Positions 31,089-50,422 of a stretch of 64,000 nucleotides of DNA are shown here, piece by piece; position 1 is the first letter of the stretch; every line of letters begins with the position of its first letter. Source of the stretch: Candidatus Uhrbacteria bacterium (GTDB taxonomy: Bacteria; Patescibacteriota; Patescibacteriia; UBA9934); assembly GCA_903848275.1 (NCBI GenBank), contig CAINGB010000001.1, forward strand, positions 1,175-65,174, given 5' to 3'. The translations under genes were made by a program, and so were the position numbers. The notes under the pieces were generated by a model that was given only the letters and a program-made list of their open reading frames with translations, did not search any database and was not told where the DNA came from.

Positions 31089-31153
31089 TGAAATGGCTAT
31101 CACAAATCTCTCCAAAAGATTTATTCAGGGTTCGAATCCCTGCGTCCCTGCCA
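31079..31153 (+). tRNA. tRNA-Trp (anticodon CCA), CCA encoded
   Basis: Manual fold: perfect acceptor AGGGACG/CGTCCCT, D-stem GTGA/TCAC, anticodon loop CTCCAAA, T-arm CAGGG-TTCGAAT-CCCTG. Confidence 0.9.
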
Positions 31154-31238
31154 AGAGCCGGTTTGGTGTTTATGACCGCTTTCCTAGTGGAAAGTGATCG
31201 GGTTCCGGGAGACCGGAGTCCCATCAAACCAGTTGCTG

Positions 31239-31268
31239 AAAAACCACCACAGTCGTGGTGGTTTTTCA
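31239..31268 (+). terminator. rho-independent terminator after tRNA-Trp
   Basis: AAAAACCACCAC-AGTC-GTGGTGGTTTTT hairpin with T-run. Confidence 0.7.
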
Positions 31269-31311
31269 ATGATTTGAAAGGTATACTCTGTCTGATTTTG
31301 AAAACCTATTT

Positions 31312-33279
31312 ATGGTAATAGACAAGGTCTCAATTCAAAATTTTCGTTCTATTGAAGACGAGACACTTTTTTGTTCCGAGCTTACTGCCCTTGTTGGAAG
31401 AAATGGATCCGGCAAATCGTCATTTTTACGTGCATTAGAATTATTCTATAGCCTCGGACCAAAGGTGGATGCAGAAGATTTTTATAATCGTGACACAAAC
31501 CGAGAGATCGTTATTGCTGTAACTTACAAAGAACTAAATAGTGAGGCTCTTTCACTTTTTGAAAAATACGCACAAGATGGAGCATTGACCGTTGAGAGAG
31601 TCGTTACTCTAAAAGAAGGCAAAGCAAACTTTTCGTACCATGGATCGTCTTTACAAAATGCAAGGTGCACAGATGTGCGTGAGGCACTGACTTTAACTGA
31701 TAAAGCCAAGACTGCAAAAGAGAAGTATACAAAGCTGAAGGCAGAAGCATCGTTCACCACTCTTCCGAATGCCACAACAAAAGAAGCCATAGCTATCGCA
31801 CTGAAGGACTGGGAAACAGCAAATCCTACTCAATGCGAACGTGCCCGCGATGATGGAAAGTTTTTCGGTTTCACTTCTGTGGCAAACGGATACCTTGGGA
31901 GATTCACAAAGTTTTTATTTATTCCTGCAGTCCGTGACGCTTCACAGGACGCAAATGATGGAGCTTCCTCGCCCATAGAGGGGTTAATGAATTTAGTTGT
32001 TCGTAGCGTCCTTGCCAGCAAGCCAGCATTATCCGAATTAAAAAAGTCGACACAGCAACAATTTAGTGAACTCATGGATCCATCAAAGTTAACTGAACTC
32101 AACGATTTGGCTGGCGGTATGACGCAAACTCTCCAGAGTTTTGTGCCAGAAGCAAGTATTGAAATGTCGTGGCAAAAACTTAATGATATTGAATTTCCAC
32201 TCCCTAAAGCAGACACAAAATTAAATCAGGATGGGTATGCATCTCCTGTTGCGCGAGCAGGTCACGGATTACAGAGAGCGTTTATCATCACTGCACTACA
32301 GCATTTAGTTTTAGCACAACAAAAATCCAATTCATCGTCGGATTCATCATCACCGGTTACGCTACCGGTACTTGTTTTGGCAATTGAAGAGCCGGAACTG
32401 TATCAGCATCCAAATAGTCAGCACCATCTGGCAAAAATTATTCTTGAAATCGCGCGAGGTAAAACTCCGGGCGTCGCAGAAAAAACTCAAGTGATCTATG
32501 GAACCCATTCACCATACTTTGTAGGTATTGATCGAATAAATCAAATCAGATTACTCCGGAAACGATCTTCTGCTAGTGTTGCCAATCCGAAGGTGACGCA
32601 TGTTGTCCAAACAGATATAGAAAAAGTTGCTAAAAAAGTTTGGGAGGTAAATGGAAGCATCGGCGCAACGTATACTGGCGCGACCTTACTACCCAGGCTA
32701 GCCTCTATCATGAGCCCGTCCATGAATGAAGGATTTTTCGCCGATGTCGCAGTGTTGGTTGAAGGCGAAGGTGATGTGGCGACTATCACAGGAACAGCAG
32801 AGGCGCTAGGGCATGATTTTGCAAGTCTGGGTATTTCGGTAATAGCTTGTTGCGGTAAAGAAAGTATTGATCGACCAGCGATAATTTTTTCTGATTTAGG
32901 CATTGAAACTTTTGTAGTTTGGGACTCAGACAAGGGAAAGAAAGACGCCAAGAAAGAATTGAACCATAACATGCAGCGACTCGTTGGCGCGAAGCTAGAA
33001 GATTTTCCGCCAACGCAGGTTAGCGATAAATATGCGTGTTTTGAAGTCGAGCTGGAGGATACTCTAAGCAAGGAGATTGGAACGAACTTTGAAACATATT
33101 TGCAGGCTATTCAGAATGAGTTAGGGATTCCAAGACGTAACCAAGCAATTAAGAACCCTGTTGTTATTTCTCGTATACTAAGGGCAGCTAAAGCTAATGG
33201 TGAAAAGTCAGTAACGCTTGAATCAATCGTCGAAAAAATTGTTCAATTAAGGGAGCCTGGTAGATCCTTGAAAGAGTAG
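31312..33279 (+). CDS. OLD-family ATP-dependent nuclease (ABC-type ATPase + C-terminal Toprim)
   Basis: Walker A GRNGSGKSS; Toprim-like VAVLVEGEGDVATITG...VVWDSDKG. Confidence 0.75.
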   Translation: MVIDKVSIQNFRSIEDETLFCSELTALVGRNGSGKSSFLRALELFYSLGPKVDAEDFYNRDTNREIVIAVTYKELNSEALSLFEKYAQDGALTVERVVTLKEGKANFSYHGSSLQNARCTDVREALTLTDKAKTAKEKYTKLKAEASFTTLPNATTKEAIAIALKDWETANPTQCERARDDGKFFGFTSVANGYLGRFTKFLFIPAVRDASQDANDGASSPIEGLMNLVVRSVLASKPALSELKKSTQQQFSELMDPSKLTELNDLAGGMTQTLQSFVPEASIEMSWQKLNDIEFPLPKADTKLNQDGYASPVARAGHGLQRAFIITALQHLVLAQQKSNSSSDSSSPVTLPVLVLAIEEPELYQHPNSQHHLAKIILEIARGKTPGVAEKTQVIYGTHSPYFVGIDRINQIRLLRKRSSASVANPKVTHVVQTDIEKVAKKVWEVNGSIGATYTGATLLPRLASIMSPSMNEGFFADVAVLVEGEGDVATITGTAEALGHDFASLGISVIACCGKESIDRPAIIFSDLGIETFVVWDSDKGKKDAKKELNHNMQRLVGAKLEDFPPTQVSDKYACFEVELEDTLSKEIGTNFETYLQAIQNELGIPRRNQAIKNPVVISRILRAAKANGEKSVTLESIVEKIVQLREPGRSLKE

Positions 33280-33368
33280 TGTTTTTTTGAGAGAATATAG
33301 TTGTTACTAAAAATTCATAAGCTTCTCGAGGGACTTGATAACCGAGCTACCATCTAAATAAATAGCGT

Positions 33369-34931
33369 ATGACTAAGGAGCAAGAACGGACAGAGCTACA
33401 CCGCGCTATTTGGCAGATCGCTAATGATCTTCGTGGAAGCGTAGACGGATGGGATTTCAAGCAGTACGTGCTTGGAATGCTCTTTTATCGTTTTATCAGC
33501 GAGAATTTAACCAACTACATCAACGCCGATGAGCGTCGCGCGGGAAAGCAAAGTTTCGACTATACAAACCTTTCTGATAAAGATGCCGAATTTGGTCGCG
33601 CTGACACGGTGAAAGAAAAAGGGTTTTATATCTTACCAAGTGACCTTTTTGTTAATGTTCGCAGCCATGCCCGCAACAACGCGAACCTTAACGAAGCCCT
33701 TGTAAATGTCTTCCGTAACATCGAAAGTTCCGCGAAGGGATTTGAGAGCGAGGACGACATCAAGGGTTTGTTTCAGGATCTCGACGTTAACTCACCAAAG
33801 CTCGGAAATAGCGTCGAACAGCGAAACCAAAAGCTCGTGAAGCTTCTTGAAGCTATTGGCGATCTTCGTCTTGGAAACTATTCGGACAATAGCATCGATG
33901 CTTTCGGTGACGCATATGAGTATTTAATGGGAATGTACGCTGCGGATGCAGGTCGATCCGGTGGCGAATATTACACCCCACAAGAAGTTAGTGAACTTCT
34001 TGCTGAGATTACCACAGTCGGCAAAACAGAAGTGAATAAAGTTTACGATCCGGCTTGTGGTTCCGGCTCTCTTCTTTTGAAATTTGCCAAGGTACTCGGC
34101 AAAGAAAATGTGCGACAAGGTTTTTACGGTCAAGAGATCAACCTCACCACCTACAACCTTTGCCGCATTAACATGTTCTTGCACGATATTAACTACAACC
34201 ATTTTAATATCGGGCTTGGCGATACCCTCACTGATCCGAAGCACTGGGACGACGAGCCGTTCGATGCCATCGTTTCTAACCCGCCCTATTCCATTAGCTG
34301 GGAGGGCGACGCCAACCCACTGCTGATCAACGACCCTCGATTTGCTCCCGCTGGTGTACTCGCGCCAAAGAGCAAAGCTGACCTCGCCTTTGCCATGCAC
34401 ATGCTCTCTTGGCTCTCAACGAGCGGCACTGCCGCTATCGTTGAGTTCCCGGGAGTTCTTTATCGCGGTGGCGCAGAACGGCAGATTCGTAAATATCTCG
34501 TTGACAATAATTACGTCGACACGGTGATTCAGCTTCCGTCTGATTTGTTTTTCGGTACAACTATTGGTACCTGCATTATTGTGCTCAAAAAGAGCAAAAA
34601 GAATAATAAAACACTTTTTATCGACGCATCGGCTGAATTTGTACGAAGTGGAAACAAAAATAAACTTTCTGATACAAATCGTGCCAGAATTTTGGAGGCG
34701 TTCACAAATCGTCAGGATATTAAGTACTTTGCAAAGCTCGTCGACAACCAAACGGTCGCGGACAATGATTACACTATTGCCGTATCAAGCTATGTTATTG
34801 CTGAAGATACTCGCGAGGCGATAAATATCACGGAACTTAATGCAAAAATTGCAAAGATCGTTTCGAGACAAGGCGAATTACGTACCGCTATCGATGCGAT
34901 CGTAAACGATATTGAGGGGTCAAATAATTGA
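33369..34931 (+). CDS. hsdM: type I restriction-modification N6-adenine DNA methyltransferase subunit HsdM
   Basis: Motif I DPACGSGSLLL, motif IV NPPYS; HsdM N-terminal domain. Confidence 0.9.
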   Translation: MTKEQERTELHRAIWQIANDLRGSVDGWDFKQYVLGMLFYRFISENLTNYINADERRAGKQSFDYTNLSDKDAEFGRADTVKEKGFYILPSDLFVNVRSHARNNANLNEALVNVFRNIESSAKGFESEDDIKGLFQDLDVNSPKLGNSVEQRNQKLVKLLEAIGDLRLGNYSDNSIDAFGDAYEYLMGMYAADAGRSGGEYYTPQEVSELLAEITTVGKTEVNKVYDPACGSGSLLLKFAKVLGKENVRQGFYGQEINLTTYNLCRINMFLHDINYNHFNIGLGDTLTDPKHWDDEPFDAIVSNPPYSISWEGDANPLLINDPRFAPAGVLAPKSKADLAFAMHMLSWLSTSGTAAIVEFPGVLYRGGAERQIRKYLVDNNYVDTVIQLPSDLFFGTTIGTCIIVLKKSKKNNKTLFIDASAEFVRSGNKNKLSDTNRARILEAFTNRQDIKYFAKLVDNQTVADNDYTIAVSSYVIAEDTREAINITELNAKIAKIVSRQGELRTAIDAIVNDIEGSNN

Positions 34932-34935
34932 TCAT

Positions 34936-36156
34936 ATGAGTAAGATTGATCAATTGATTAGTGAATTATGCCCAGAGGGAGTGGAGTTTAAAACGATAGG
35001 AGAATTTGTTGAATTTGCAAAAGGAGCAAGTATTCCTCGAGCCAGAACCTCGGTTGATTATGAAGTTCCGTACCTACATTACGGCGATGTCTACAAGTTG
35101 TATAAAAAAGAGGTCGATCTTGATGTTGTTTATAATTCAATCATTAAGGTCTCATCACATGAGAGAGTTCGCGAAAATCAATATATTCAGACGGGAGATA
35201 TCGTTTATAACCTAACCTCAGAAACGAAAGAGGATTTGGGTAAGGCTATCGTGGTTATCAATAATAGCGGACGGAAATTTATTGCAGGAACCGAAACAAC
35301 TGTAATGAAAATTACACGGAAGGATCTTGTCGATCCATGTTTTTTGAACTATGTGTTGATGACGGAGTGGTATTTGCAGGAGTTCAGACAACATACAACT
35401 GGCACCAAAGTCTACCGTGTTCATCCCCGTGCCATTGCAAAAATCTCGATCCCTCTTCCGCCACTTGTGATTCAAAGAGAGATCGTTAACATTCTTGATA
35501 GGTTCACAGAGCTGGAGACAGAGCTGGAGACAGAGCTGGAGACAGAGCTGGAGACAAGAATGATGCAATACGACTACTATCGTTCAGAGGTTCTGACATC
35601 ATCTGATTCAGAGAGAGCGATATCTGACGTCTGTGGGATTAGTAGAGGAAGAGTGATGTCGAGGGATTATCTCAGAGCGAACGTGGGCGAATATCCGGTT
35701 TATTCTTCGCAAACTGCCAACGATGGAATTTTCGGATACATCGATACTTACGATTACGAAGGTGAATACGTAACCTGGACAACAGACGGAGCGAACGCAG
35801 GATCAATTTTTTACCGCAATGGAAAATTTAGTATCACGAATGTCTGCGGGCTCTTAAAAGTTACCGCTGATGATGTTAATGCAAAATTTCTCACGTATAT
35901 CCTCGGTACTGTTTCAAAAAAATATGTTAGTGCGGGCATGGGAAACCCGAAGCTGATGAGCAACGTTATGGCTAATATCAAGGTGCGAATTCCCACCTTG
36001 ATCGAACAAGAGCGTATCGTAACCTTACTCGACAAATTCGATACCCTAGTGAACGATATCTCCATTGGTCTCCCAGCTGAACTCGCGGCACGTCGAAAAC
36101 AGTATGAGTACTATCGGAGCAAGCTCCTGACTTTCAAAGAATATGCCAAAAGCTAA
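34936..36156 (+). CDS. hsdS: type I R-M specificity subunit HsdS (two target-recognition domains, repeat-bearing central region)
   Basis: Position in hsdM-S-R; overlapping stop/start; conserved central and C-terminal helices; (ELET)4 repeat. Confidence 0.8.
   Translation: MSKIDQLISELCPEGVEFKTIGEFVEFAKGASIPRARTSVDYEVPYLHYGDVYKLYKKEVDLDVVYNSIIKVSSHERVRENQYIQTGDIVYNLTSETKEDLGKAIVVINNSGRKFIAGTETTVMKITRKDLVDPCFLNYVLMTEWYLQEFRQHTTGTKVYRVHPRAIAKISIPLPPLVIQREIVNILDRFTELETELETELETELETRMMQYDYYRSEVLTSSDSERAISDVCGISRGRVMSRDYLRANVGEYPVYSSQTANDGIFGYIDTYDYEGEYVTWTTDGANAGSIFYRNGKFSITNVCGLLKVTADDVNAKFLTYILGTVSKKYVSAGMGNPKLMSNVMANIKVRIPTLIEQERIVTLLDKFDTLVNDISIGLPAELAARRKQYEYYRSKLLTFKEYAKS
35509..35556 (+). 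repeat. 4 x 12-bp perfect tandem repeat GAGCTGGAGACA inside hsdS, encoding (ELET)4
   Basis: Seen directly. Confidence 0.95.
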
Positions 36157-39100
36157 GAAATATAATCTTGTTGCAGAGAGTGCTCAAAGCACGGTCGTCG
36201 CTGAATATACGCCAGACGACAAGCGAGCCTCGTACTATCAAAGCGAGGCTGATCTTGAGCGTGCACTTATTAAACAGCTCGAGGCGCAGGCGTATGAGTA
36301 TGTCGCTATTACCTCTGAGGCGGATTTGGTGGTCAATCTACGTAAGCAGTTGGAGAATTTGAACGACTTTGCTTTTACCGACAGTGAATGGGATCAATTC
36401 TTTGCGGGTGAGATTGCCAATCCAAATCAAAGCATTGAAGAAAAGACGGCTACTATTCAGGAGGATCATATCAGGACTCTCACGCGCGATGATGGAAGCG
36501 TGAAGAATATTTATCTTCTCAAGAAAGACAACGTTCATAACAATAGCGTACAGGTGATTAACCAGTACGCGACCGATGAAGGACGGCGCAGCAACCGTTA
36601 CGATGTTACCGTTCTCGTGAATGGACTCCCAATGGTACACATCGAGCTCAAGCGTCGTGGAGTAGCAATTCAAGAAGCCTTCAATCAGATCAATCGTTAT
36701 CAGCGCGAAAGCTTCTGGGCTGCGGCTGGGCTTTTTGAATACGTTCAGCTGTTTGTTATTTCAAACGGCACACACACGAAGTATTACAGCAATACCACGC
36801 GCTCACAGCATGTTAAAGACAGTGTTGATGGTGCAGTAAAGAAAGGCAAACGCACGAGCAATAGCTTTGAATTCACAAGCTGGTGGGCGGATGCAACGAA
36901 TCGTCCGATTACGGATTTAATGGACTTCGCGAAAACCTTCTTTGCTAAGCACGCGCTTTTGAACATCTTGACTCGTTACTGCGTATTTACAAGCGATCAC
37001 CTGTTGTTAGTGATGCGTCCGTACCAAATCGTAGCGACCGAACGAATTCTCAGTCGTATCGAGATTAGTACGAATTATAAAAAGTTGGGCACCGTGGAGG
37101 CTGGTGGCTACATCTGGCACACCACGGGATCTGGAAAGACGCTCACGAGCTTTAAGACAGCGCAGTTAGCAAGCAAGCTTCCCCACATCGATAAAGTCAT
37201 CTTCGTGGTAGACCGCAAGGATTTGGACTACCAAACCATGCTCGAGTATGACAAATTCGAGAAGGGTGCCGCCAATAGCAACACGAGCACTGCGATTCTT
37301 GGACGCCAGCTCGAAAATTCGAATTCGCGCATCATTGTTACCACCATCCAAAAGCTCGATCGTTTCATCGGTCGCAATTTCAACCACTCAATTTTTGATG
37401 GTCATGTCGTGATTATTTTTGACGAATGCCACCGTTCGCAGTTTGGCGACATGCACACAGCGATCACAAAAGCCTTCAAAAATTATCACCTTTTCGGTTT
37501 TACCGGAACGCCAATTTTTGCTGCCAATGCCTCATCGGGTAGTCATCCTGACCTCAAAACAACAGAACAAGCCTTCGGAGAAAAGCTTCACACCTACACC
37601 ATCGTTGATGCAATTGCCGACAAGAATGTCCTACCCTTTAAGGTTGATTACGTCTCCACCGTTCGCGAAGCAGAAAACATTGAAGATAAGAAAGTTAGCG
37701 ACATTGACCGCGAGGCTATTCTTGCCGCTCCAGAACGGCTATCAAATATCGTTGGTTATATTCGTGAACATTTTGATCAAAAGACAAAGCGCAACAGCTT
37801 CTATCAATTGAAGGATCGGCGACTGGCAGGGTTTAACTCGATCTTTGCTGTTTCTTCAATTGAGATGGCCAAGAAATATTACGCAGAGTTCAAGAAGCAA
37901 CTTGCCGGCATCCCGAGCGATAAGCATTTGAAAATCGCAACTATCTTCAGCTTTGGAGTGAATGACGAAGATGCCGATGGCATGATCGATGAGAACTCGG
38001 AGGACACGAGTGGTCTCGACGTCAGCTCGCGAGACTTCTTGGAGAATGCCATCGTCGACTATAACGCCATGTTCGGCACATCGTACGACACATCAGCTGA
38101 CAAGTTCCAGAATTACTATAAAGACGTAAGTTTGCGGGTGAAGAATCGAGAGATCGACGTACTCATTGTTGTGAACATGTTCCTCACCGGTTTTGATGCA
38201 ACAACGCTCAATACGTTGTGGGTAGATAAGAACCTTCGTTTGCACGGACTGCTCCAAGCATATTCGCGTACAAACCGCATTCTCAATAGTGTAAAAACCT
38301 TCGGCAACATCGTCTGCTTCCGCAACTTAGAAAAAGCAACAAACGAAGCAATCGCGCTTTTTGGCGATAAGGAAGCGAGTGGAATCGTTCTTCTTAAGGC
38401 TTACGCTGATTATTACCACGGTTACAAAAACGAGGGTAAGGAAGTGCGGGGTTATGAAAGCCTGGTAAATGAATTGATGGAAAGATTCCCTGTCGGGGAA
38501 AGAATTCTCGGCGAACAAGATCAAAAGGACTTCATCAAGTTGTACGGTGCAATTTTGCGCGTACGCAACATTTTGACCACCTTCGATGAATTCGCCGGCC
38601 ATGAGATTTTGACCGAACGTGATGTTCAGGACTATCACAGCGCGTACATCGACATTTACAATGAGTTCCGAAAAAACGTAAAAGATGAAAAGGAGAACGT
38701 GAACGACGACGTTGTTTTTGAAATGGAATTAATCAAGCAGGTAGAGATCAATATCGATCACGTTTTGAACCTCATTAAGCAATATCACGAGGATCATACG
38801 AAGAATCGAGAACTTTTGGTTGACATTAATAAGGCGATTGATTCCAGTGTTGAGTTGCGTAACAAAAAGGATCTTCTTAACCAATTCATCACATCGCTTG
38901 ATGTTCATTCGGTGGTTGACAGCGATTGGCGTGAATTCGTGGACAAAAAGAAGCTTGAGGAACTCGAAGAAATTATTGCTCATGAAAATCTTGATCATGA
39001 TGCAACGTTTACCTTCGTGCGGAATGCATTTCGTGACGGCAATATTGTAGGGAATGGAACAGCAATCGCGAAAGTGCTTCCTCCTGTATCTCGCTTCTCC

Positions 39101-39196
39101 CCAACGGGCGAGCGCACGAAAAAGCGCGAGAGCGTCTTGGGGAAACTAACACATTTCTTTGAGAGATTCTTCGACATTTCCGGAGGTGACCTTTAA
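36143..39196 (+). CDS. hsdR: type I restriction enzyme endonuclease/translocase subunit HsdR
   Basis: N-terminal nuclease region, SF2 helicase motifs TGSGKTLTS and FDECHRSQ; 1017 aa. Confidence 0.9.
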   Translation: MPKAKKYNLVAESAQSTVVAEYTPDDKRASYYQSEADLERALIKQLEAQAYEYVAITSEADLVVNLRKQLENLNDFAFTDSEWDQFFAGEIANPNQSIEEKTATIQEDHIRTLTRDDGSVKNIYLLKKDNVHNNSVQVINQYATDEGRRSNRYDVTVLVNGLPMVHIELKRRGVAIQEAFNQINRYQRESFWAAAGLFEYVQLFVISNGTHTKYYSNTTRSQHVKDSVDGAVKKGKRTSNSFEFTSWWADATNRPITDLMDFAKTFFAKHALLNILTRYCVFTSDHLLLVMRPYQIVATERILSRIEISTNYKKLGTVEAGGYIWHTTGSGKTLTSFKTAQLASKLPHIDKVIFVVDRKDLDYQTMLEYDKFEKGAANSNTSTAILGRQLENSNSRIIVTTIQKLDRFIGRNFNHSIFDGHVVIIFDECHRSQFGDMHTAITKAFKNYHLFGFTGTPIFAANASSGSHPDLKTTEQAFGEKLHTYTIVDAIADKNVLPFKVDYVSTVREAENIEDKKVSDIDREAILAAPERLSNIVGYIREHFDQKTKRNSFYQLKDRRLAGFNSIFAVSSIEMAKKYYAEFKKQLAGIPSDKHLKIATIFSFGVNDEDADGMIDENSEDTSGLDVSSRDFLENAIVDYNAMFGTSYDTSADKFQNYYKDVSLRVKNREIDVLIVVNMFLTGFDATTLNTLWVDKNLRLHGLLQAYSRTNRILNSVKTFGNIVCFRNLEKATNEAIALFGDKEASGIVLLKAYADYYHGYKNEGKEVRGYESLVNELMERFPVGERILGEQDQKDFIKLYGAILRVRNILTTFDEFAGHEILTERDVQDYHSAYIDIYNEFRKNVKDEKENVNDDVVFEMELIKQVEINIDHVLNLIKQYHEDHTKNRELLVDINKAIDSSVELRNKKDLLNQFITSLDVHSVVDSDWREFVDKKKLEELEEIIAHENLDHDATFTFVRNAFRDGNIVGNGTAIAKVLPPVSRFSPTGERTKKRESVLGKLTHFFERFFDISGGDL

Positions 39197-40548
39197 TCGA
39201 CTCTCGTAATATTTAAAATGCGATCCCGAATAGTGATCGCATTTTGTAGATCCTCGAGAACTTCACGTTTTTCATCACGAGTGCCGTGGGTCAAAATGTG
39301 TTTGGCAAACTTTCGGATGCTGATTTCTTTTTCCTTTGGCTTGGCTATTTTTTCTCCAAGCACCTCTTCCGCGAAAGCCTTATAGCGATCCAGTTCACTT
39401 TCAATCCGCTTCTTAGCTCCGATCTGACCGATATCTATCTCATCAATTATTTTTAAGAGTTGATCAAGGACATCTTTTTCTCGCATTGGTTGTTCCGTAC
39501 ATTCTCGTCCACTTGATTTACCACATCGGTAGTAAACATACCGATGAACATTCCCGTTACCCTTATTTCGTTTGATCTTCTCTTCAGCCGTAATGCCCGA
39601 TCCACAAGCACCGCATTTAAACATCTTCGTGAACTGAAATTCCTTTTCTCCATAGATTGGCCTATCCGGCACGGAAAGCTGATTCTGTACTCGATCAAAC
39701 AGCTCTTGAGTGATCAACGGCTCATGTGCGCCTTTGTACCATTTGCCGCTACCGGCTGGAGCTTCGAATGATCCGTAATAAAATGGGTTCTTCAATATTT
39801 TATACACGCTGCTCAGCGTTACATTTTTCCCCGTACGAGTCTTGAAATTGATCTCTTTGAGGTAGGTGAAGATTGCTCGCCCCGTCGCTTGCTGATGCCC
39901 CACCATTTCGAATACTTTTTTGATGACCGGCGCACGTTCTTCGTCGATGAATATCCTATTTTGCCCTCGATTGATTGAACGCTCATTAAGGTAGCCGAGC
40001 GGAGGCAAGCCAGGTCGCCAACCCATCTCTACTTTATTCTTCAAGCCGCGTTTGACGTTGATCCCTCTGTTATCGTTTTCCAGTTTTGCCTGACTGCCAA
40101 GGATCATGAGTAGGAACTTTTCATTTGGTGAATTAGTGAACTTCTGTGAATGCGTGCGGATGCCGTGGAGCCTCCCTTTATCCATAAGATCGACGAGCAT
40201 GCCAAGGTCGCCAGCATTACGGCTCAATCGATCTGGTGCCCAAGTGAGGATCGCATTGAACATTCCTTGGTCAATATCCGTCATGAGTCGGTTAAACTCT
40301 GGTCGTTCTCCGGATGCTTTTGCTGAATGACTCTCCCGTCGAATCTCGGTAACGTTCATGCCTTCACGGACTGCCAGTTCTTGCATCTCGTGAATCTGTG
40401 AGTCGATGGACAATGCTTGACGTTCGTCGTCTTCTGAACTTTTTCTCGCATATAGGCAATAACGGAGGTCAACGATGACCTCGCCTTTACCAACGTTATT
40501 TGCTCTGTTTTCTGCCAGCAGTGTTGGACTCGAAAGTTGTTGATTCAT
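39193..40548 (-). CDS. large serine recombinase (resolvase-type catalytic domain + recombinase domain + zinc ribbon)
   Basis: Catalytic-Ser N-terminus RYCLYARKSSEDDERQALSIDSQ; zinc ribbon CGACGSG...YYRCGK; 451 aa. Confidence 0.85.
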   Translation of the reverse strand: MNQQLSSPTLLAENRANNVGKGEVIVDLRYCLYARKSSEDDERQALSIDSQIHEMQELAVREGMNVTEIRRESHSAKASGERPEFNRLMTDIDQGMFNAILTWAPDRLSRNAGDLGMLVDLMDKGRLHGIRTHSQKFTNSPNEKFLLMILGSQAKLENDNRGINVKRGLKNKVEMGWRPGLPPLGYLNERSINRGQNRIFIDEERAPVIKKVFEMVGHQQATGRAIFTYLKEINFKTRTGKNVTLSSVYKILKNPFYYGSFEAPAGSGKWYKGAHEPLITQELFDRVQNQLSVPDRPIYGEKEFQFTKMFKCGACGSGITAEEKIKRNKGNGNVHRYVYYRCGKSSGRECTEQPMREKDVLDQLLKIIDEIDIGQIGAKKRIESELDRYKAFAEEVLGEKIAKPKEKEISIRKFAKHILTHGTRDEKREVLEDLQNAITIRDRILNITRVD

Positions 40549-40612
40549 ATGGACTTGATACGTGGTGTTTATGCCCGCCTTCCTCTAGGCAAGGACATTA
40601 ATGCCACGTCTG

Positions 40613-40629
40613 TCCGGGGTGTCTAGGCC
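40613..40629 (+). repeat. left copy of a 17-nt inverted-repeat pair (TCCGGGGTGTCTAGGCC)
   Basis: Reverse complement recurs at 41425..41442; lies just upstream of the recombinase gene start. Confidence 0.6.
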
Positions 40630-40709
40630 TGTGAACTGTTGGTAACTTCCGACCGGAGTGGCTGCGATACGGCGGTCAATATTAAACAGCCGACATGCGG
40701 GTCAGACGG

Positions 40710-41171
40710 CTAGAAGAAACGCTTCGGTAATGAGATTCCGCCTAATGGTTTCGCTCTCGTGCCGATAACGAGACCATTCATCGCTACCTTGATTGCACGA
40801 CCCCCACTCGCCTGAAACGCGACTTCTTTTTGTTTTAGCAGTAATGCGTCAATGAACATGGTGACTCTTGGATCGCTCGCAATGGCAAACGGATTGTTTC
40901 GATCGATCACGCCGAGGTCGCCCCACTCCTCGTCGTTGGGATACGTCACCCAATTATTGTCGAGTTCGTGCATGATCGCCTTCAGATTCAGCCGTCGATT
41001 AGCCGACGTGATTATCACGATAAATCCTCCATTACCTCTAAACAGTGTTAGTTCGAGTAATGCTTCCTCGGAAACGCCTACTTTCTTTGCGATATCTCTT
41101 GAAGCCGTTGCGGCTCCTTTTGGGAGCTGAAATACCTCTAAATTGACCGTTAGTTCGAGTGGATATTCCAT
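40710..41171 (-). CDS. YbaK/ProX-like aminoacyl-tRNA deacylase domain protein
   Basis: Pattern EALLELTLFRGNGG-FIVIITSANRRLNLKAI and C-terminal VAFQASGGRAIKV resemble the YbaK family. Confidence 0.45.
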   Translation of the reverse strand: MEYPLELTVNLEVFQLPKGAATASRDIAKKVGVSEEALLELTLFRGNGGFIVIITSANRRLNLKAIMHELDNNWVTYPNDEEWGDLGVIDRNNPFAIASDPRVTMFIDALLLKQKEVAFQASGGRAIKVAMNGLVIGTRAKPLGGISLPKRFF

Positions 41172-41424
41172 AGTTCTATCAACATCAATGCCACAACGGT
41201 GGGGGTTGTCTAGTCCCTGAAAACCCTTGAAAAGTCGACCTTCTCTAAAGGGTAAGGAAGGACATTTAAGCCAATAAAAACGACTTTACTTCCGGGTGTT
41301 TGTAAGCTATGCTTTGGCAGTCTTAGGTTCAACCCACGCAAGGGTCATTTTGGCCATTTCCGAATAGCGCGCAAAGAGCGGCATCCGGTAAAACAATCGA
41401 CTGCACTATTCGGTGCATAGGTTG

Positions 41425-41442
41425 GGCCTAAGACACCCCGGA
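41425..41442 (-). repeat. right copy of the inverted-repeat pair (GGCCTAAGACACCCCGGA)
   Basis: See 40613..40629. Confidence 0.6.
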
Positions 41443-41485
41443 TGTCGCTTATGTTTAAAGCGATCCGGTTGTCTTAACCCTCGCT

Positions 41486-43648
41486 ATGAACATCACTGCT
41501 AGACCCTGTCGGATGCGCGACGTGATCGCCAGCGACAGTTACTACTCAATTCCAGATTACCAACGCCCTTACGAATGGACGGCGGAAAATGTGGAAGACT
41601 TTTGGACGGATTTGACGAAGGCCTTTGAGCACAAAGAAGACGGATACTTTTTAGATAAGCTCATCCTGGTCAATCGCGGAGACGGCAAGGACTTCGAGGT
41701 GGTCGACGGACGACAGCGTCTGACGACGACCATGATTCTCCTCGCGGTACTCCGTGATTTTTTCTTTGAGCATGATTTGCCGGAACGTGCCGACGAGATT
41801 CAGAACACCTGCATCAAGCGTGGAAAGTATCGGCTGCAAGTTCGACCAGAAGAGCGTGCCTCATTCGAGGATCGTATCCTGAAGTCCGTCGGCATTTTGA
41901 AAGACGTCGCCAAGAGCAACCTGCCAGAAACATTCAAGATGGCCGTCACGCTTCTCAATCAATTCATTGAGGAAAAATCCGAAGAGCTAAAATCGAAAAA
42001 TGCCGAAATCGACATCGTTATTTATCTCGACGAGTTCTACCATTTCCTTCTCGACGAAGTAGTGTTGATTGTGATGACGACGGACTCGGTTTCTTCAGCC
42101 TTTACCATCTTCGAAGCGATCAACACTCGCGGCAAGGACTTGGAGACAAAAGACCTTTTGAAGAACCTGCTTATTCGCCGCATTGAGGAAGAAGTGACGC
42201 GCCACAATGCCGAATATCCGACGGCGCAGAAGTCTTTCGACGACGAGAAGCGACGCTTCTTGGACACATGGCTGGAGATCGGAAAAGTAAAAGTTCCGAC
42301 CGACGAATTATTGCGCCATCATCGTATTGCCGTCGTCGGCGACCGTTCACGCAAAGATTTGTTCCGCGAGATTTCCGAAGACATCAAGGACGCCAACGCA
42401 ACCACCGAGGCGTTCATGGATAACTGGAAGCGTTCGGTCGATGCGTTCGTCGAGCTCAAGGCCGGTACGTGGCATGGCGAGGCACTGAACGGATCGGCGC
42501 AAAAGGCACTGCTCCTTCTTTGGAACATCGGTCATGGTTATTGGATTCCAGTACTCATTTCCGCCTGGCGTGATGGCATCGACCGTGAAAAAGCTCAGAC
42601 GTTGATCGAAGGGCTTGAACGCTTTTGTGGCCTTTCGTTCGTGGCTGGCCACACCTCGCGCGGCGTCCTTTCAACGCTCCTCGCATCCGTGCGCGACCTC
42701 AACAACAAACAGTCTGTGGAGAACGTTCTCGCCCGCATCGAAGCATTTCTTCGCAAGAACCGCGTCTTCCGCGATGCGACCGAGAACCTACGGAGCGATG
42801 TGTATCACGCGAGCTGGGGGAAATATGCCTTGGCCAAGTATGAGTACACGCTTTTGGATGATTCCATCATTCGCGAGATTCCGTTTTCGCGAACGGTTCA
42901 GCTGGAGCACATCCTGCCGCAGACGATGACCGATCCCGCATGGACGGCGTTGTTTACCGAAACCGAGCATGACGAGCTGGTGAACACGCTCGGTAACGTA
43001 ACACTTCTTGCCGGAAGCATGAGCGAGGGGCGAAAGTCCAAAAACCAATCTGCTTCGAACAAGCCGTTCGCCGACAAGGTAAAAATCTATCGTGGTGAGA
43101 CGAACAAGGACGGGCTAACCGCCTTCCGAATGACGCAAGAAGTCGCGGAGTACGAATCCTGGACACCAAACGTCATTCGCGAGCGAACGGAGATCGTTCT
43201 TTCAACACTTGTTGGCGCATGGGACGTCACCGCCGAGGATATGGACAGCCAACCCGAGATCGTCACGTCTGATTCTGTCAGGCCAGTTGATACAGAAATT
43301 CTTACGAGCGACGATATCCGCTTCCGTCTTGAAGAAACGCTTGGACGCGAGAGTGATCTTACTCCACGCCTCATCGTTTTCCTCAAGGTTCTTCTCTCCG
43401 AAGGTCGTAGCTTTACCCAAGAGGAGCTTCGCGCTAATCTGTACGACAATGGAATCGGCACTGACCTCGGCCAGGCGGGGCGATATTTGAGCAATATTTC
43501 TCAATTCGTCACCAACGTGAACAACGCCCATCTTCGAGCCATCATTGCCTACGACCTCGAACACGATCGCCCAGGCGCACGAAAGGATAACTACCGGATC
43601 CGCAACGAATATCGAGACCTCGTTCGTGACGCGCTCGCCAAACTTTAA
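41486..43648 (+). CDS. GmrSD-type type IV restriction enzyme (DUF262 ParB-like NTPase + DUF1524 His-Me finger nuclease)
   Basis: DUF262 motifs IPDYQRPYEW, DGRQRLTT; DUF1524 motifs EHILPQ...LGNVTLLAGSMSEG. Confidence 0.75.
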   Translation: MNITARPCRMRDVIASDSYYSIPDYQRPYEWTAENVEDFWTDLTKAFEHKEDGYFLDKLILVNRGDGKDFEVVDGRQRLTTTMILLAVLRDFFFEHDLPERADEIQNTCIKRGKYRLQVRPEERASFEDRILKSVGILKDVAKSNLPETFKMAVTLLNQFIEEKSEELKSKNAEIDIVIYLDEFYHFLLDEVVLIVMTTDSVSSAFTIFEAINTRGKDLETKDLLKNLLIRRIEEEVTRHNAEYPTAQKSFDDEKRRFLDTWLEIGKVKVPTDELLRHHRIAVVGDRSRKDLFREISEDIKDANATTEAFMDNWKRSVDAFVELKAGTWHGEALNGSAQKALLLLWNIGHGYWIPVLISAWRDGIDREKAQTLIEGLERFCGLSFVAGHTSRGVLSTLLASVRDLNNKQSVENVLARIEAFLRKNRVFRDATENLRSDVYHASWGKYALAKYEYTLLDDSIIREIPFSRTVQLEHILPQTMTDPAWTALFTETEHDELVNTLGNVTLLAGSMSEGRKSKNQSASNKPFADKVKIYRGETNKDGLTAFRMTQEVAEYESWTPNVIRERTEIVLSTLVGAWDVTAEDMDSQPEIVTSDSVRPVDTEILTSDDIRFRLEETLGRESDLTPRLIVFLKVLLSEGRSFTQEELRANLYDNGIGTDLGQAGRYLSNISQFVTNVNNAHLRAIIAYDLEHDRPGARKDNYRIRNEYRDLVRDALAKL

Positions 43649-43657
43649 CCTTCTTCT

Positions 43658-45130
43658 ATGCTTTCCAAGTCGAACTTCATGCAATTCCTTCGTTGCTCTT
43701 GCGAGCTATGGCTCACGAAGCAGCGACCGGATCTCGTACCTCCAACGGATCCCGCGCTTCAGCGCATCTTCGACGAGGGGAACATTGTCGACAAATGGGC
43801 GCAGAAGCTCTTCCCAGGCGGCGTGGACGTTGATGGATTCGGAAAGCCTGCCGCTGAGAACACGAGGAAGGCGATCGCGAACGGTGCGACCGTCCTGCTT
43901 CAGCCGACATTTATGACTGCGAAGCTTTCTTGCCGTGGCGACATCCTGACGAAAAATGCCGACGGATCGTGGGATATTTACGAGGTGAAGAGTTCGACGG
44001 ACGTGAAGGAGGAACATATTACCGACGTCGCTTTCCAGCGTATCTGCATCGAGGAAGCTGGCATTCGCATTTCGCGCACGTTCCTCGTTCACATCAACAA
44101 CCAATACGTTCGTAATGGCGAGATTGACCCCGAGCAACTATTCACCAAAGTCGACATCACGCGCGAAGTCGAGAATGTGATGCCGATGGCAAAGAAAGAA
44201 ATTCCCCGCGCCCTTGCTGTCCTCGATTGGGACAAGGTACCAGGACTCCTACACGTCATGTCCTGCAACGATCCTGCCGAGTGTGAATTCCTTTCTTGTT
44301 ATTTCAACCAGTTCAGAAGTGCCGACATTTATTCCATCGCCTCGTCTCTTCCGAAAGAGAAGCTTGTCGCGTTCCTTGAACGAGGTTTTATCACACCAGA
44401 ACAGGTTCCAGTTGATCTCATGGCCGAGCTTGGGGACATCAAGCTACCGGACGCAAAGGCTGAACCAACGCTCTTCGTAGACAAGGACACTATCAAATCC
44501 GAACTCGACGGACTCGTGTACCCGCTCTACTTTTTGGATTACGAAACGCAGCACTCCGCGGTGCCGGCGTTCGATGGTTACCGACCGTACCAGCAGATGG
44601 TTTTTCAGTATTCCGTTCACGTCGTGCGTGAACCTGGAGCCGAGCCGGAACACTACGAATTCCTCGCCGATGAACCAAAAGACCCCGCATCGATGGTTGC
44701 GGAGTCTCTCAAGAAGCACATTGGCGACACTGGAAGCATTATCGTGTGGAACGCTCGGTTCGAAGCATCCCGCAATGCGGAGATCGGCGAGCACCTGCCC
44801 GAGTTTGCAGACTTCATGGCGAACATCAACAACCGTATTTACGATCTGATGATGATCGTAAAGAAGGGCTACTACGTCGACTCACGTTTCGGTGGAAGCG
44901 CGTCGATCAAGAAGGTATTACCAGTCATGTGTCCCGAGCTTTCGTATAACGATCTCGCCATCCACGAGGGTGGCACGGCATCCGCGAGCTGGGCTACGCT
45001 CACGAACGCCGCGATTCCCGTCGAAGATCGAGAACAATTGCGCAAGGAAATGTTGGCGTATTGTTCGCTTGATACCTTCGCGATGCTGGCAATCCATCGA
45101 AAGTTTCTGGAGGTCGTTCGACCGTCTTAG
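43658..45130 (+). CDS. DUF2779-type two-nuclease protein (N-terminal PD-(D/E)XK Cas4-like + C-terminal DnaQ-like exonuclease)
   Basis: N-term MLSKSNFMQFLRCSCELWL; D...EVK motif; C-term LDYETQ and LDTFAMLAIH. Confidence 0.5.
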   Translation: MLSKSNFMQFLRCSCELWLTKQRPDLVPPTDPALQRIFDEGNIVDKWAQKLFPGGVDVDGFGKPAAENTRKAIANGATVLLQPTFMTAKLSCRGDILTKNADGSWDIYEVKSSTDVKEEHITDVAFQRICIEEAGIRISRTFLVHINNQYVRNGEIDPEQLFTKVDITREVENVMPMAKKEIPRALAVLDWDKVPGLLHVMSCNDPAECEFLSCYFNQFRSADIYSIASSLPKEKLVAFLERGFITPEQVPVDLMAELGDIKLPDAKAEPTLFVDKDTIKSELDGLVYPLYFLDYETQHSAVPAFDGYRPYQQMVFQYSVHVVREPGAEPEHYEFLADEPKDPASMVAESLKKHIGDTGSIIVWNARFEASRNAEIGEHLPEFADFMANINNRIYDLMMIVKKGYYVDSRFGGSASIKKVLPVMCPELSYNDLAIHEGGTASASWATLTNAAIPVEDREQLRKEMLAYCSLDTFAMLAIHRKFLEVVRPS

Positions 45131-46749
45131 CGGTCGTAGAGATTGCTCTCGGGAATACCCATCTTCCGACGATTTTCGATCCGCGCCTCTTCTGCCCTAT
45201 CAATCTCCTCAGCCAACTTCCGTTCGTCTTCCATTTCTTTTTCAAACTTTTCTTCATCGATCTCAATGAGATCAATACGCCTCATGTTGCCGACACCCAT
45301 ACCGATGTGGCTCGAGCGTGTTTTCTCGATCAGATAGTTCATGCCGAGAGAGAAGGCGTCACAAAGATCGTCGTGTTCGCCGGGTCCGAAGTTCACGAGC
45401 TGTTCGATGAGCTTCTCAGCGCCAACGCGAGGAAATACTACTTCCCCCTGGACGACATACGATGCTGGAATCTCAAGACGTTCACGCTTATTCATGCCGT
45501 GAAGTGCCACCATTCGTGCACGACATCCCTCTTGTCTCAATTCAGCGGCGACACGTTCCTGAAAACTTACGTCCTCAATGAGCACCTCTGCGTCACGGAT
45601 TTCCTTGAGCGCGTCCCTCTTTGTGATGATCGTGCTTACCGACTCGCTGACCTTCATATGTTTGTTGACGACGCCGGGCAATACGTAAAACTTGCGGTTC
45701 CTGCCACCACCATATACAGCGATCGTCACAAGTGCTGCATAGTCGGCAGTAGACTTATCTGAGACGGCAAGATCAGTGCCAATGACCAGATGACGGCATG
45801 TGAGGTCTTTCGGCAGCGCGTCATAGTACTGAAACTCCTCGCGCCGCAAGAGCTGAGTTTCATCGTCGACAATGCGGAGCATGAACTCGCGTTGCCAAGC
45901 GGATTCATTTGGAACGCTGCGGTGGAACTGCTCAACGGTTGCCTTGTCTATAAAACGCTCTGGCCAGGTAGGGTCACCGTTATCGTCGACGATCGGGACG
46001 CGAACGAACGTTCCATCAATGCGCTTTTCCTCGATGGCATTGCGGAGACGCTGTAGGATGCAGTCGGCATTCACCAAATTTCCAACATAGACGAACTGTG
46101 TGCGCTGATCTCCGCATGGAATGACCTCGCTCGTATACCAATCATAATTCGCATCGCGTGCGTCCTGCCCCCGTGTTGAGTCGATGTTTTCAACGTCGTC
46201 GCAGATTACCAAGTCTGGGCGATTCTGAAGGTGACGCAAACCACGGATGCCTTGCTCGCGCGAGAGGGCAATAATCTTTGCCCCGTACTGCTTGATAACA
46301 ATGGCACCCGCGTTCCATTCCTCATCCTGTTCTTCAAACGGTCCCAAATCTGATAAAAGCAATGGATTAGTGGACAGCTCCTCCTTGATGTTGGTCAGGT
46401 ATTGGCGCGCCTGTTTCTGAGTTTGGCCAATGATGAGAATGCACTTTTTCTGTGGCATCCCTACCACCGACCAGATCGGAAGCGAAAGGGATAAGATGGT
46501 CGACTTCCCCGACCCACGGAACGCAAGGGCTACCAAGAACTTCTGTTTGATGTTTTCAGTTTGTGCGAAGAGATACTGATGGAAGGCAGCGAATGGGCTG
46601 GTAAAGTAGTGGCCGAAGTACACACGCGCAAACATCTCGTGACTATTCTTTACCACCGTCGTTCGGACTGATTGGTTCGTCTGCATGAGCTGGATCATCT
46701 GATCCAACGCTATCGGATTCTGATTCGGGTCTGGCTGTTGTTTCGGCAT
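45127..46749 (-). CDS. phage terminase large subunit (probable true start near 46635)
   Basis: Walker A LAFRGSGKST, Walker B LVICDDVENID, C-terminal RNase-H-like nuclease region. Confidence 0.75.
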   Translation of the reverse strand: MPKQQPDPNQNPIALDQMIQLMQTNQSVRTTVVKNSHEMFARVYFGHYFTSPFAAFHQYLFAQTENIKQKFLVALAFRGSGKSTILSLSLPIWSVVGMPQKKCILIIGQTQKQARQYLTNIKEELSTNPLLLSDLGPFEEQDEEWNAGAIVIKQYGAKIIALSREQGIRGLRHLQNRPDLVICDDVENIDSTRGQDARDANYDWYTSEVIPCGDQRTQFVYVGNLVNADCILQRLRNAIEEKRIDGTFVRVPIVDDNGDPTWPERFIDKATVEQFHRSVPNESAWQREFMLRIVDDETQLLRREEFQYYDALPKDLTCRHLVIGTDLAVSDKSTADYAALVTIAVYGGGRNRKFYVLPGVVNKHMKVSESVSTIITKRDALKEIRDAEVLIEDVSFQERVAAELRQEGCRARMVALHGMNKRERLEIPASYVVQGEVVFPRVGAEKLIEQLVNFGPGEHDDLCDAFSLGMNYLIEKTRSSHIGMGVGNMRRIDLIEIDEEKFEKEMEDERKLAEEIDRAEEARIENRRKMGIPESNLYDR

Positions 46750-47191
46750 AGGAAATTGGAGATTGAATAAGAGTAGCCTTGTGAGTGGCGAGCATCTGCA
46801 TAAAGTCAGTGGTTAATGCTGTCGCCTCAGGTGACATTTCTGGCGGCTTAACGGTGACCGCGGCATCGATACGCAGTTTGTCCGCGTAGGCCTTGTGTCG
46901 GTTGCGAAGCCAGAACGCGATGGCCGGATAGTTTTGATCCTTGATAAGCGTGATGAGCTGGCTCTCGGCCATGTCGTTGATGAACGCCGTGCCTTCGCGA
47001 ATCGCTTCTTCTGTTTCCGATGCGAATGTCACATCCTCGTCTACCCATCGGTAGTAGGTCGCCCGTGCCACGCCGTTTTTCTCACATGCAACTTGGATGA
47101 TAGGAATTTTCCGGAGCTGATCGACGATGAGCTTCTTTTGTTCTTGTTGACGTTGGTCGATCAATTTACTGTCGCGTTTATTCTTGGGCAT
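46643..47191 (-). CDS. phage terminase small subunit (HTH DNA-binding)
   Basis: HTH ACEKNGVARATYYRWV; directly upstream of and overlapping terL. Confidence 0.6.
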   Translation of the reverse strand: MPKNKRDSKLIDQRQQEQKKLIVDQLRKIPIIQVACEKNGVARATYYRWVDEDVTFASETEEAIREGTAFINDMAESQLITLIKDQNYPAIAFWLRNRHKAYADKLRIDAAVTVKPPEMSPEATALTTDFMQMLATHKATLIQSPISYAETTARPESESDSVGSDDPAHADEPISPNDGGKE

Positions 47192-49317: not shown

Positions 49318-49548
49318 GCTCTTGGCGGCGAAAGGGGGAAAGGTCGTGCCGCCGAAGAGCGGATTTTATGAATGGGTGTAATTTTCTATCATTGGAAACT
49401 GGCTATGATGCCGTGATGGTTATGGTGAGTTAAGAGGTTCGTGGTGGGTGCGATTCCACCGGATCTGCATTCGGAAATGGGCCTATTTCCCAATGTGACC
49501 TTGCGCCGCCCGAAGGCGATCTAGCGTGTCTAAACAGTAGCATGTCCC

Positions 49549-50420: not shown

Positions 50421-50422
50421 CT

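What the first reader, a model, noticed from the sequence alone, without database searches (positions are those of the whole stretch)
35509..35556. 12-bp tandem repeat (x4) in the central conserved region of hsdS: likely specificity/phase switch
GAGCTGGAGACA is repeated four times exactly and encodes ELETELETELETELET between the two target-recognition domains of HsdS. In EcoR124I/EcoR124II, two versus three copies of a 12-bp repeat in this same region change the recognition-sequence spacer from N6 to N7. Four perfect copies here predict slipped-strand variation and a population with alternative type I specificities.
Basis: partly seen in the sequence, partly recalled or inferred. Interest (0 to 1): 0.58.

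Follow-up and report, generated by a model that had tools for sequence, protein, structure and literature searches.

The report
Spacer-length repeat in type IC hsdS
A perfect 12-base repeat inside the DNA-recognition gene of a restriction-modification system is real, but it is the ordinary hallmark of this enzyme family, sits at the family's usual maximum length, and nothing here shows that it is actively switching.

Summary
Window 35506-35556 is a perfect 12-bp array of 4.25 copies, encoding T(ELET)x4 in the central helix of an intact HsdS. The gene lies in an hsdM-hsdS-hsdR operon whose M and R subunits match EcoR124 over their full length, so this is a type IC system.

The EcoR124I/II analogy is correct in kind, but three points need adjusting.
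- **Length state.** Measured between the conserved ILDxF and RxxQYxYYR motifs, the repeat-bearing linker is 17 aa. That is the state expected for the published three-TAEL enzymes (N7 class), not an unusual expansion.
- **Family hallmark.** In 60 related genomic loci and about 100 related proteins the linker is almost always 9, 13 or 17 aa and never longer. Nearly every member carries a nucleotide-homogeneous 12-bp array.
- **No on/off switch.** The unit keeps the reading frame.

Family data show real turnover. Units are homogenised within arrays (0.20 differences per 12 nt) but differ between loci (2.23). Three natural allele pairs differ only by one 4-aa unit. Four or five TAEL units occur only in disrupted enterobacterial hsdS genes.

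No close relative and no read data exist for this locus, so heterogeneity here is untested. Verdict: a new member of a known kind, of low to moderate interest. The operon lies in a 22.7-kb strain-specific defence island at tRNA-Trp.

The parts
35506..35556 (+). Perfect 12-bp tandem array, 4.25 copies (ACA GAG CTG GAG ...), encoding T(ELET)x4. This is the 17-aa linker, HsdS residues 191-207.
34936..36156 (+). hsdS, specificity subunit, 406 aa from the ATG at 34936. It has two target-recognition domains and is the only hsdS copy in the window.
   Evidence: Pfam Methylase_S x2. HsdS fold: Foldseek hits to 1ydx, 1yf2, 5ybb_D and 7bst_A. No other hsdS fragment by tblastn.
35464..35592 (+). Central conserved helix, residues 177-219 (43 aa), laid out as 14 aa + 17-aa repeat linker + 12 aa.
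   Evidence: AF2 model, mean pLDDT 86; sequence layout
35998..36126 (+). C-terminal conserved helix, residues 355-397 (43 aa). It is the presumed antiparallel coiled-coil partner, with the same 14+17+12 layout but a non-repetitive linker DTLVNDISIGLPAELAA.
   Evidence: The distal linker is 17 aa in nearly all relatives.
33369..34931 (+). hsdM, type IC methyltransferase subunit.
   Evidence: Pfam N6_Mtase + HsdM_N. 623 bits over the full length to EcoR124 HsdM, 7bst_D.
36143..39196 (+). hsdR, type IC restriction/translocase subunit. It overlaps the hsdS end by 14 nt.
   Evidence: Pfam HSDR_N, SWI2_SNF2, T1R_D3-like and EcoR124_C. 874 bits to EcoR124I HsdR, 2w00.
31152..53870 (.). 22.7-kb strain-specific defence island that carries the R-M operon, inserted at the 3' end of tRNA-Trp (31079-31153).
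   Evidence: Metagenome scaffold L090 joins window 31151 directly to 53871, with 100% and 99.985% identical flanks. GC skew is about 0 inside versus about -0.25 outside. tRNA position.

Best explanation
The array is the spacer-length determinant of a type IC HsdS subunit. Each 12-bp unit encodes four residues (ELET), about one helical turn, of the central helix. That helix pairs with the C-terminal helix to hold the two target-recognition domains a fixed distance and rotation apart. The number of units therefore sets the gap between the two half-sites of the bipartite recognition sequence.

Here the linker is 17 aa, the same length as the partner helix's linker and as the three-TAEL enzymes EcoR124II, EcoDXXI and EcoPrrI. 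This predicts an N7-class spacer, but the absolute value depends on the recognition domains.

Because the units are identical in DNA, replication slippage or unequal crossing-over can remove or add a unit in frame. Loss of one unit (a 13-aa linker, the commonest state in relatives) would shorten the spacer by 1 bp and create a new specificity. Gain of a unit (21 aa) is probably not tolerated.

This works as a low-frequency, heritable specificity dial on evolutionary or strain timescales. It is not an on/off phase switch.

- **Shown here:** the anatomy, family membership, quantised lengths, array homogenisation, and unit-only allele differences in relatives.
- **Inferred:** the spacer value, the functional outcome of a copy change in this enzyme, and that changes occur in this lineage.
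For: - **Array and position:** the tract is perfect and lies in the central helix of an intact HsdS.
- **Type IC membership:** HsdM and HsdR match EcoR124 subunits over their full length, and HsdR has the EcoR124_C domain.
- **Same site as TAEL:** the EcoR124 chain 7bst_A has the linker TALTAELTAELNM (13 aa) at the same site.
- **Quantised lengths:** linkers are 9, 13 or 17 aa in about 100 protein relatives with a central match. In 60 related loci the counts are 5 aa x1, 9 x2, 13 x41, 14 x1 and 17 x15, with none above 17.
- **Matched helices:** both predicted helices are 43 residues with a 14+17+12 layout.
- **Concerted evolution:** among 22 loci with all-ELEA units, units differ by 0.20 nt within arrays and 2.23 nt between loci. 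In 27 of 60 arrays (window included) all units are identical. The nearest relative, L081, has GAGCTGGAAGCA x3 against GAGCTGGAGACA x4 here, and both differences are fixed in every unit.
- **Unit-only alleles:** P0068/P0083, P0058/P0069 and P0015/P0040 have 0 mismatches and one 4-aa indel at the repeat.
- **Both states common:** in enterobacterial plasmids 36 records match the 2-TAEL query and 53 match the 3-TAEL query at >=99%.
- **Ceiling:** the only 4- or 5-TAEL alleles found (L096, L098, L097) lie in IS-disrupted or truncated hsdS.
- **Literature:** PMC3874165 (unequal crossing-over; 2 vs 3 TAEL gives N6 vs N7; three is the apparent optimum). PMC6789123 (NgoAV LEAT 1 vs 2 gives N6 vs N7 among strains). 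PMC10030836 (tetra-amino-acid repeats are characteristic of type IC).
Against: - There is no direct evidence for this locus. No close relative exists (best HsdS 62% identity). An exact flank-plus-unit DNA pattern gave 0 hits in metagenomes. The R-M module proteins tried (HsdS, HsdM, HsdR, OLD, recombinase) are not on record. No reads were available.
- Absolute spacer length cannot be read from helix length alone. In S. aureus type I enzymes it varies from 5 to 7 bp with the recognition domains (PMC5399793).
- How a one-helix length change is accommodated in the coiled coil is unresolved (PMC3874165).
- The ELET unit has Thr where TAEL or ELEA has Ala, and it has not been tested experimentally.
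Confidence: 0.8

Rival explanations
1. Rapid contingency locus. The array slips at high frequency, so the living population is a mixture of 2-, 3- and 4-unit alleles with different methylomes and restriction specificities.
For: The tract is perfect over 51 nt. Family-wide homogenisation and unit-only allele differences show that copy changes outpace point substitutions over about 1.8 kb. NgoAV repeat number varies among strains of one species (PMC6789123).
Against: - Four copies of a 12-bp unit is a short array. I recall that known high-frequency switches use many more copies of shorter units.
- Essentially every type IC hsdS carries such an array, including stable, long-studied ones.
- PMC3874165 attributes the EcoR124I/II change to unequal crossing-over. 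I recall the interconversion being rare, but found no rate in the papers read here.
- A specificity change exposes unmodified chromosomal sites, which should select against frequent switching.
- No read-level data were available.
Confidence: 0.12
2. Static structural element. The repeat only encodes a helix of the required length. Its DNA perfection is a relic of a recent duplication or gene conversion, and copy number is effectively fixed in this lineage.
For: 17 aa equals the partner helix's linker and the proposed optimum (PMC3874165). It is the ceiling in intact genes, so one direction of change is closed. No variant of this allele was found anywhere.
Against: Homogenisation is seen across many phyla, each with its own synonymous variants, which requires repeated turnover rather than one relic event. 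The 9-, 13- and 17-aa states all occur in intact genes, and allele pairs are identical apart from one unit.
Confidence: 0.25
3. Recombinase-driven hsdS shuffling. The adjacent serine recombinase (39193-40548) would change specificity by inverting or exchanging hsdS segments, as in phase-variable type I shufflons, with the repeat being incidental.
For: A recombinase gene lies immediately downstream of hsdR.
Against: There is no second hsdS copy or fragment in the window (tblastn). No inverted repeats involve hsdS. The recombinase is a large serine recombinase (Resolvase + Recombinase + Zn_ribbon_recom domains) within a 22.7-kb island, which fits an integrase role.
Confidence: 0.02

Closest known systems
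EcoR124I / EcoR124II (type IC; TAEL repeat, 12-bp unit, x2 vs x3)
   Same: The gene order is the same, and HsdM and HsdR are full-length homologues. A 12-bp in-frame repeat sits at the same place in the central conserved helix of HsdS. The linker length class is 13 or 17 aa.
   Different: The unit encodes ELET/TELE rather than TAEL. The whole 17-aa linker is repeat (4.25 perfect DNA copies), whereas EcoR124II has TAL + 3xTAEL + NM. The recognition domains are unrelated, and the specificity and spacer of this enzyme are unknown. The system is on a chromosomal island rather than a conjugative plasmid.
NgoAV of Neisseria gonorrhoeae (type IC; LEAT repeats, 0-3 copies among strains)
   Same: It has a tetra-amino-acid repeat in the central region. 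Natural copy-number polymorphism there changes the methylated motif from N6 to N7 (PMC6789123).
   Different: NgoAV also has a poly-G frameshift that truncates HsdS. No homopolymer or frameshift switch was seen here, where hsdS is intact.
EcoDXXI / EcoPrrI (type IC with three TAEL repeats, N7)
   Same: They share the maximal 'three-TAEL' length state, described as the apparent optimum (PMC3874165).
   Different: I did not align their sequences here. The comparison rests on the review's description.
Uncharacterised type IC hsdS with perfect 50-nt arrays (L003, L009, L012, L027, L050, L055, L075)
   Same: HsdM is 71-84% identical. Each has a 17-aa linker made of four near-perfect 12-bp units (TELEAELEA..., TELTAELTA..., TELKAELKA...).
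   Different: The unit sequence and recognition domains differ, and the hosts span several phyla. None is experimentally characterised to my knowledge.

Membership tests
Type IC restriction-modification family (EcoR124-like) | HsdR homologous to EcoR124I HsdR, including the family-specific C-terminal domain | tested here: met
   Pfam EcoR124_C 2e-64, plus HSDR_N, SWI2_SNF2 and T1R_D3-like. 874 bits to 2w00/4bec; best stretch residues 8-830, two matched stretches.
Type IC restriction-modification family (EcoR124-like) | HsdM homologous to EcoR124 HsdM over its full length | tested here: met
   E = 3.4e-186, 623 bits, residues 1-518 vs 3-516 of 7bst_D.
Type IC restriction-modification family (EcoR124-like) | HsdS with N-terminal, central and C-terminal conserved regions, and tetra-amino-acid tandem repeats in the central one | tested here: met
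   The central region ILDRF-T(ELET)4-RMMQYDYYR and the C-terminal region LLDKF-...-RRKQYEYYR both align to EcoR124 HsdS. The repeat criterion is taken from PMC10030836 and PMC3874165.
Type IC restriction-modification family (EcoR124-like) | Gene order hsdM-hsdS-hsdR | tested here: met
   hsdM 33369-34931, hsdS 34936-36156, hsdR 36143-39196, all on the + strand. That this order is typical of type IC is from my own knowledge.
Type IC restriction-modification family (EcoR124-like) | Subunit complementation or antibody cross-reaction with family members (the classical definition) | not testable with these tools
   Needs experiments.
Repeat-mediated specificity switch (EcoR124I/II type) | A change of unit number changes the recognition spacer by 1 bp per unit | not testable with these tools
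   Shown for EcoR124, EcoDXXI hybrids and NgoAV in the literature (PMC3874165, PMC6789123). For this enzyme it is only inferred.
Repeat-mediated specificity switch (EcoR124I/II type) | Unit number varies between otherwise identical alleles | tested here: inconclusive
   Met for relatives: three allele pairs with 0 mismatches and one 4-aa indel, and 2- vs 3-TAEL plasmid alleles. For this locus no close relative exists to compare.
Phase-variable (contingency) locus | Repeat-length heterogeneity within a clonal population at high frequency | not testable with these tools
   No read data are available, and the assembly gives one consensus.
Phase-variable (contingency) locus | A repeat change switches expression on or off (frameshift) | tested here: not met
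   The unit is 12 bp, a multiple of 3. Any whole-unit change keeps the frame.
Invertible hsdS shufflon | Multiple hsdS copies or half-genes with inverted repeats and a site-specific recombinase | tested here: not met
   The window holds a single hsdS with no fragments. No inverted repeats lie in hsdS.

The most novel reading that the evidence does not exclude
The array could be a truly active contingency locus in this organism. The host may have a small genome: a >=90% relative of the neighbouring cardiolipin synthase lies on a 1.09-Mb contig, and the nearest HsdM relatives are in Patescibacteria MAGs. The population would then hold N5/N6/N7 methylome subclones. More generally, the nucleotide homogeneity of these arrays across many phyla, with a hard ceiling at a 17-aa linker, could reflect selection for mutability of restriction specificity rather than a by-product of the repeat.
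Probability: 0.12. Interest if true: 0.5.

Novelty: new member of a known kind. Interest (0 to 1): 0.25.

Why it matters
If the array changes copy number in this lineage, the host would gain a new restriction and methylation specificity in a single in-frame step. That would reset its barrier to phages and to DNA from sister strains. The principle has been known since EcoR124I/II, so this locus adds an example rather than a concept.

The by-products of the check have modest general use. Across phyla the linker is quantised at 9, 13 or 17 aa. The arrays evolve concertedly. Linkers above 17 aa were found only in broken genes. This suggests a simple rule for annotating type IC spacer classes. It also suggests that only contraction is functionally open to a 17-aa allele like this one.

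Tried and rejected
- **Exact-protein look-ups.** HsdS, HsdM, HsdR, OLD, the recombinase and GmrSD are not on record, so no strain comparison for this allele was possible.
- **Exact DNA pattern.** The left flank plus one unit gave 0 hits in metagenome contigs.
- **Protein-guided metagenome scan with HsdS.** The best hit was 62% identical, too distant for an allele comparison.
- **Close genomic pairs with different copy number.** The best pair among the 80 hsdM-guided loci was L047/L050, with 76% and 98% flank identity. With one genome per species, this set was uninformative, so the evidence came from the protein hits instead.
- **Inversion shufflon with the adjacent serine recombinase.** Rejected: there is no second hsdS and no inverted repeats.
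- **On/off phase variation.** Rejected because the unit is in frame.
- **Chance or low-complexity artefact.** Rejected (expectation about 2e-19).
- **Gubler & Bickle 1991 and Youell & Firman 2008.** Neither paper is held. My recollection that a four-TAEL EcoR124 or EcoDXXI construct was promiscuous is unverified and is not used as evidence.
- **Organism name.** Cluster look-ups returned no names. I ran no further search on it.

Full report
**1. The observation.** The sequence at 35509-35556 is GAGCTGGAGACA four times without a mismatch.
- An ACA just upstream extends the perfect period-12 tract to 35506-35556: 51 nt, 4.2 copies, 100% matches, score 102. This is the strongest tandem repeat in the window.
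- A tract like this is expected about 2e-19 times by chance in 64 kb.
- In the frame of the ORF that starts at the ATG at 34936 (the ORF lister reports an upstream TTG at 34912), it encodes T-ELET-ELET-ELET-ELET, residues 191-207.

**2. What the gene is.**
- The ORF has two Methylase_S domains.
- Its AlphaFold model (mean pLDDT 86) matches solved HsdS subunits: 1ydx, 1yf2, 5ybb_D (TM 0.71) and EcoR124I 7bst_A.
- Upstream is hsdM (33369-34931) and downstream hsdR (36143-39196, overlapping hsdS by 14 nt).
- HsdM matches EcoR124 HsdM over its full length (623 bits).
- HsdR matches EcoR124I HsdR at 874 bits and carries the EcoR124_C domain.
- This is therefore a type IC system. The window holds no other hsdS copy or fragment and no inverted repeats in hsdS, which excludes an inversion shufflon despite the neighbouring serine recombinase.

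**3. Calibrating 'four copies'.** I measured the linker between two conserved landmarks, ...ILDxF and RxxQYxYYR.
- The window has TELETELETELETELET, 17 aa.
- The EcoR124 chain in the PDB has TALTAELTAELNM, 13 aa, which is the two-TAEL (N6) form. One more TAEL, as in EcoR124II, gives 17.
- So this allele is in the three-TAEL length state. A review describes that state for EcoR124II, EcoDXXI and EcoPrrI and calls it the apparent optimum (PMC3874165).
- Four DNA copies are counted here only because the flanking residues also fit the unit.
- The model gives two 43-residue helices, 177-219 and 355-397. Both have the same 14+17+12 layout, so the repeat-bearing helix is exactly as long as its partner.

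**4. The family picture.** I surveyed 120 protein relatives and 80 genomic loci retrieved with HsdM. Those loci are 67-85% identical and spread over many phyla.
- The central linker is quantised. In 60 related loci with a recognisable central region it is 5 aa (1 locus), 9 (2), 13 (41), 14 (1) or 17 (15), and never longer.
- The C-terminal linker is almost always 17 aa.
- Most arrays are homogeneous in DNA. In 27 of 60 arrays (window included) all internal units are identical, and nine related loci have four identical units. Arrays such as L003, L009, L012, L027, L050, L055 and L075 are perfect over 50 nt.
- The window's array is therefore typical of the family.

**5. Evidence that copy number turns over.**
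- *Concerted evolution.* Among 22 loci whose units all encode ELEA, units differ by 0.20 nt within an array and 2.23 nt between loci.
- The nearest relative of the window's conserved region, L081, has GAGCTGGAAGCA x3 against GAGCTGGAGACA x4 here. Both differences are present in every unit of each array.
- *Unit-only allele pairs.* Three pairs of natural HsdS proteins have no substitution over 575-605 aligned residues and differ only by one 4-aa unit at this site: P0068/P0083, P0058/P0069 and P0015/P0040.
- *Both states are common in plasmids.* With EcoR124-identical flanks, 36 enterobacterial plasmid records match the two-TAEL query and 53 match the three-TAEL query at >=99%.
- *A ceiling.* Only three of about 960 matching records reach four or five TAEL. 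All three lie in broken genes:
  - L096 is cut by an IS3 element.
  - L097 has stop codons in the first recognition domain.
  - L098 is a 90-codon remnant between IS elements.
- Expansion beyond 17 aa therefore happens but was not seen in an intact gene.

**6. Mechanism.** Established work on EcoR124I/II, EcoDXXI hybrids and NgoAV shows that each 4-aa unit adds about one helical turn. This moves the recognition domains 0.34 nm apart, rotates them by 36 degrees, and lengthens the recognition spacer by 1 bp. The change arises by unequal crossing-over at the repeat (PMC3874165; PMC6789123, where PacBio gave N6 for one LEAT and N7 for two).
- By homology and anatomy, this array most likely does the same job.
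- The present state predicts an N7-class spacer, and loss of one unit predicts N6.
- The absolute value is uncertain, because spacer length also depends on the junctions between helix and recognition domain (PMC5399793).
- Whole-unit changes keep the frame, so the array cannot switch the gene off.

**7. What could not be tested.**
- No allele close to this one exists in the collections searched. The R-M module proteins tried are not on record, an exact flank-plus-unit pattern gave 0 metagenome hits, and the best HsdS relative is 62% identical.
- There are no reads.
- I rate a high-frequency switch as unlikely (about 0.12). The array is short, the same feature sits in essentially every type IC hsdS, and I recall the EcoR124 interconversion being rare.

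**8. Context.**
- A metagenome scaffold (L090) carries window 26273-31151 at 100% identity, joined directly to window 53871-60384 at 99.985%.
- Window 31152-53870 is therefore a 22.7-kb island inserted at the 3' end of tRNA-Trp. This fits the neutral GC skew inside against about -0.25 outside.
- The island is a stack of defence genes:
  - an OLD-family nuclease
  - the type IC operon
  - a large serine recombinase
  - GmrSD
  - a Cas4/UU173-like protein
  - a terminase-like gene
  - a ParB-methyltransferase fusion
  - an S24 peptidase with SAVED-HNH and SMODS genes

**9. Verdict.** The locus is an ordinary, full-length-state member of a mechanism known since 1989. Novelty: a new member of a known kind. 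Interest: 0.25.

Noticed in passing
window 31152-53870: A 22.7-kb island sits at the 3' end of tRNA-Trp (31079-31153). It is absent from metagenome scaffold L090, whose flanks are 100% and 99.985% identical to the window. GC skew is about 0 inside and about -0.25 outside. The junctions share only CCTGC.
   Followed up: yes
window 31164-31194 and 40563-40593: An imperfect 31-nt direct repeat (81% identity) has one copy 12 nt inside the island's left end and the other just upstream of the serine recombinase start. It brackets the OLD + hsdMSR + recombinase block (9.4 kb). This may reflect tandem accretion of two related elements at one attachment site.
   Followed up: partly
window 31312-33279: An OLD-family nuclease (AAA_15 ATPase + OLD-like TOPRIM) lies directly upstream of hsdM on the same strand.
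   Followed up: partly
window 49755-53216: A CBASS-like module: S24 peptidase (49755-50420), a SAVED protein with a faint HNH match (50423-51568), a SMODS cyclase-like gene (51565-52452) and a 258-aa ORF. The same genes lie on a separate 3.5-kb scaffold (L095) in the metagenome that also holds the empty-site scaffold.
   Followed up: partly
window 41486-49317: More defence or mobile-element genes lie in the island: GmrSD type IV restriction enzyme (41486-43648), a UU173/Cas4-like protein (43658-45130), a terminase-large-subunit-like gene (45127-46749, minus strand) and a ParB-domain adenine methyltransferase (47932-49317, minus strand).
   Followed up: no
proteins P0001-P0066, not in the window: Three-domain HsdS proteins of about 600 aa, one named Faecalibacterium prausnitzii, carry a second in-frame repeat. 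SRAEQ is present in up to 7 copies (15-bp unit) near residue 396. It varies among otherwise near-identical alleles, in addition to the TAEL-type repeat.
   Followed up: partly
L096 2501-2662, L097 2501-2674, L098 2501-2662 (enterobacterial plasmids): EcoR124-type hsdS alleles with four or five TAEL units exist. All three found are disrupted: by an IS3 insertion, by stop codons in the first recognition domain, or as a remnant flanked by IS elements.
   Followed up: yes
window 53884-53951: A 34-bp tandem repeat (2 copies, 80% matches) lies immediately right of the island boundary. At least its left copy is also present at the empty site in L090, so it is chromosomal rather than part of the island.
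   Followed up: partly
window 26628-27905: A >=90% relative of the neighbouring cardiolipin synthase lies on a 1.09-Mb contig, and the nearest HsdM relatives (84%) are in Patescibacteria MAGs. The host may be a small-genome bacterium. The organism was not identified.
   Followed up: no
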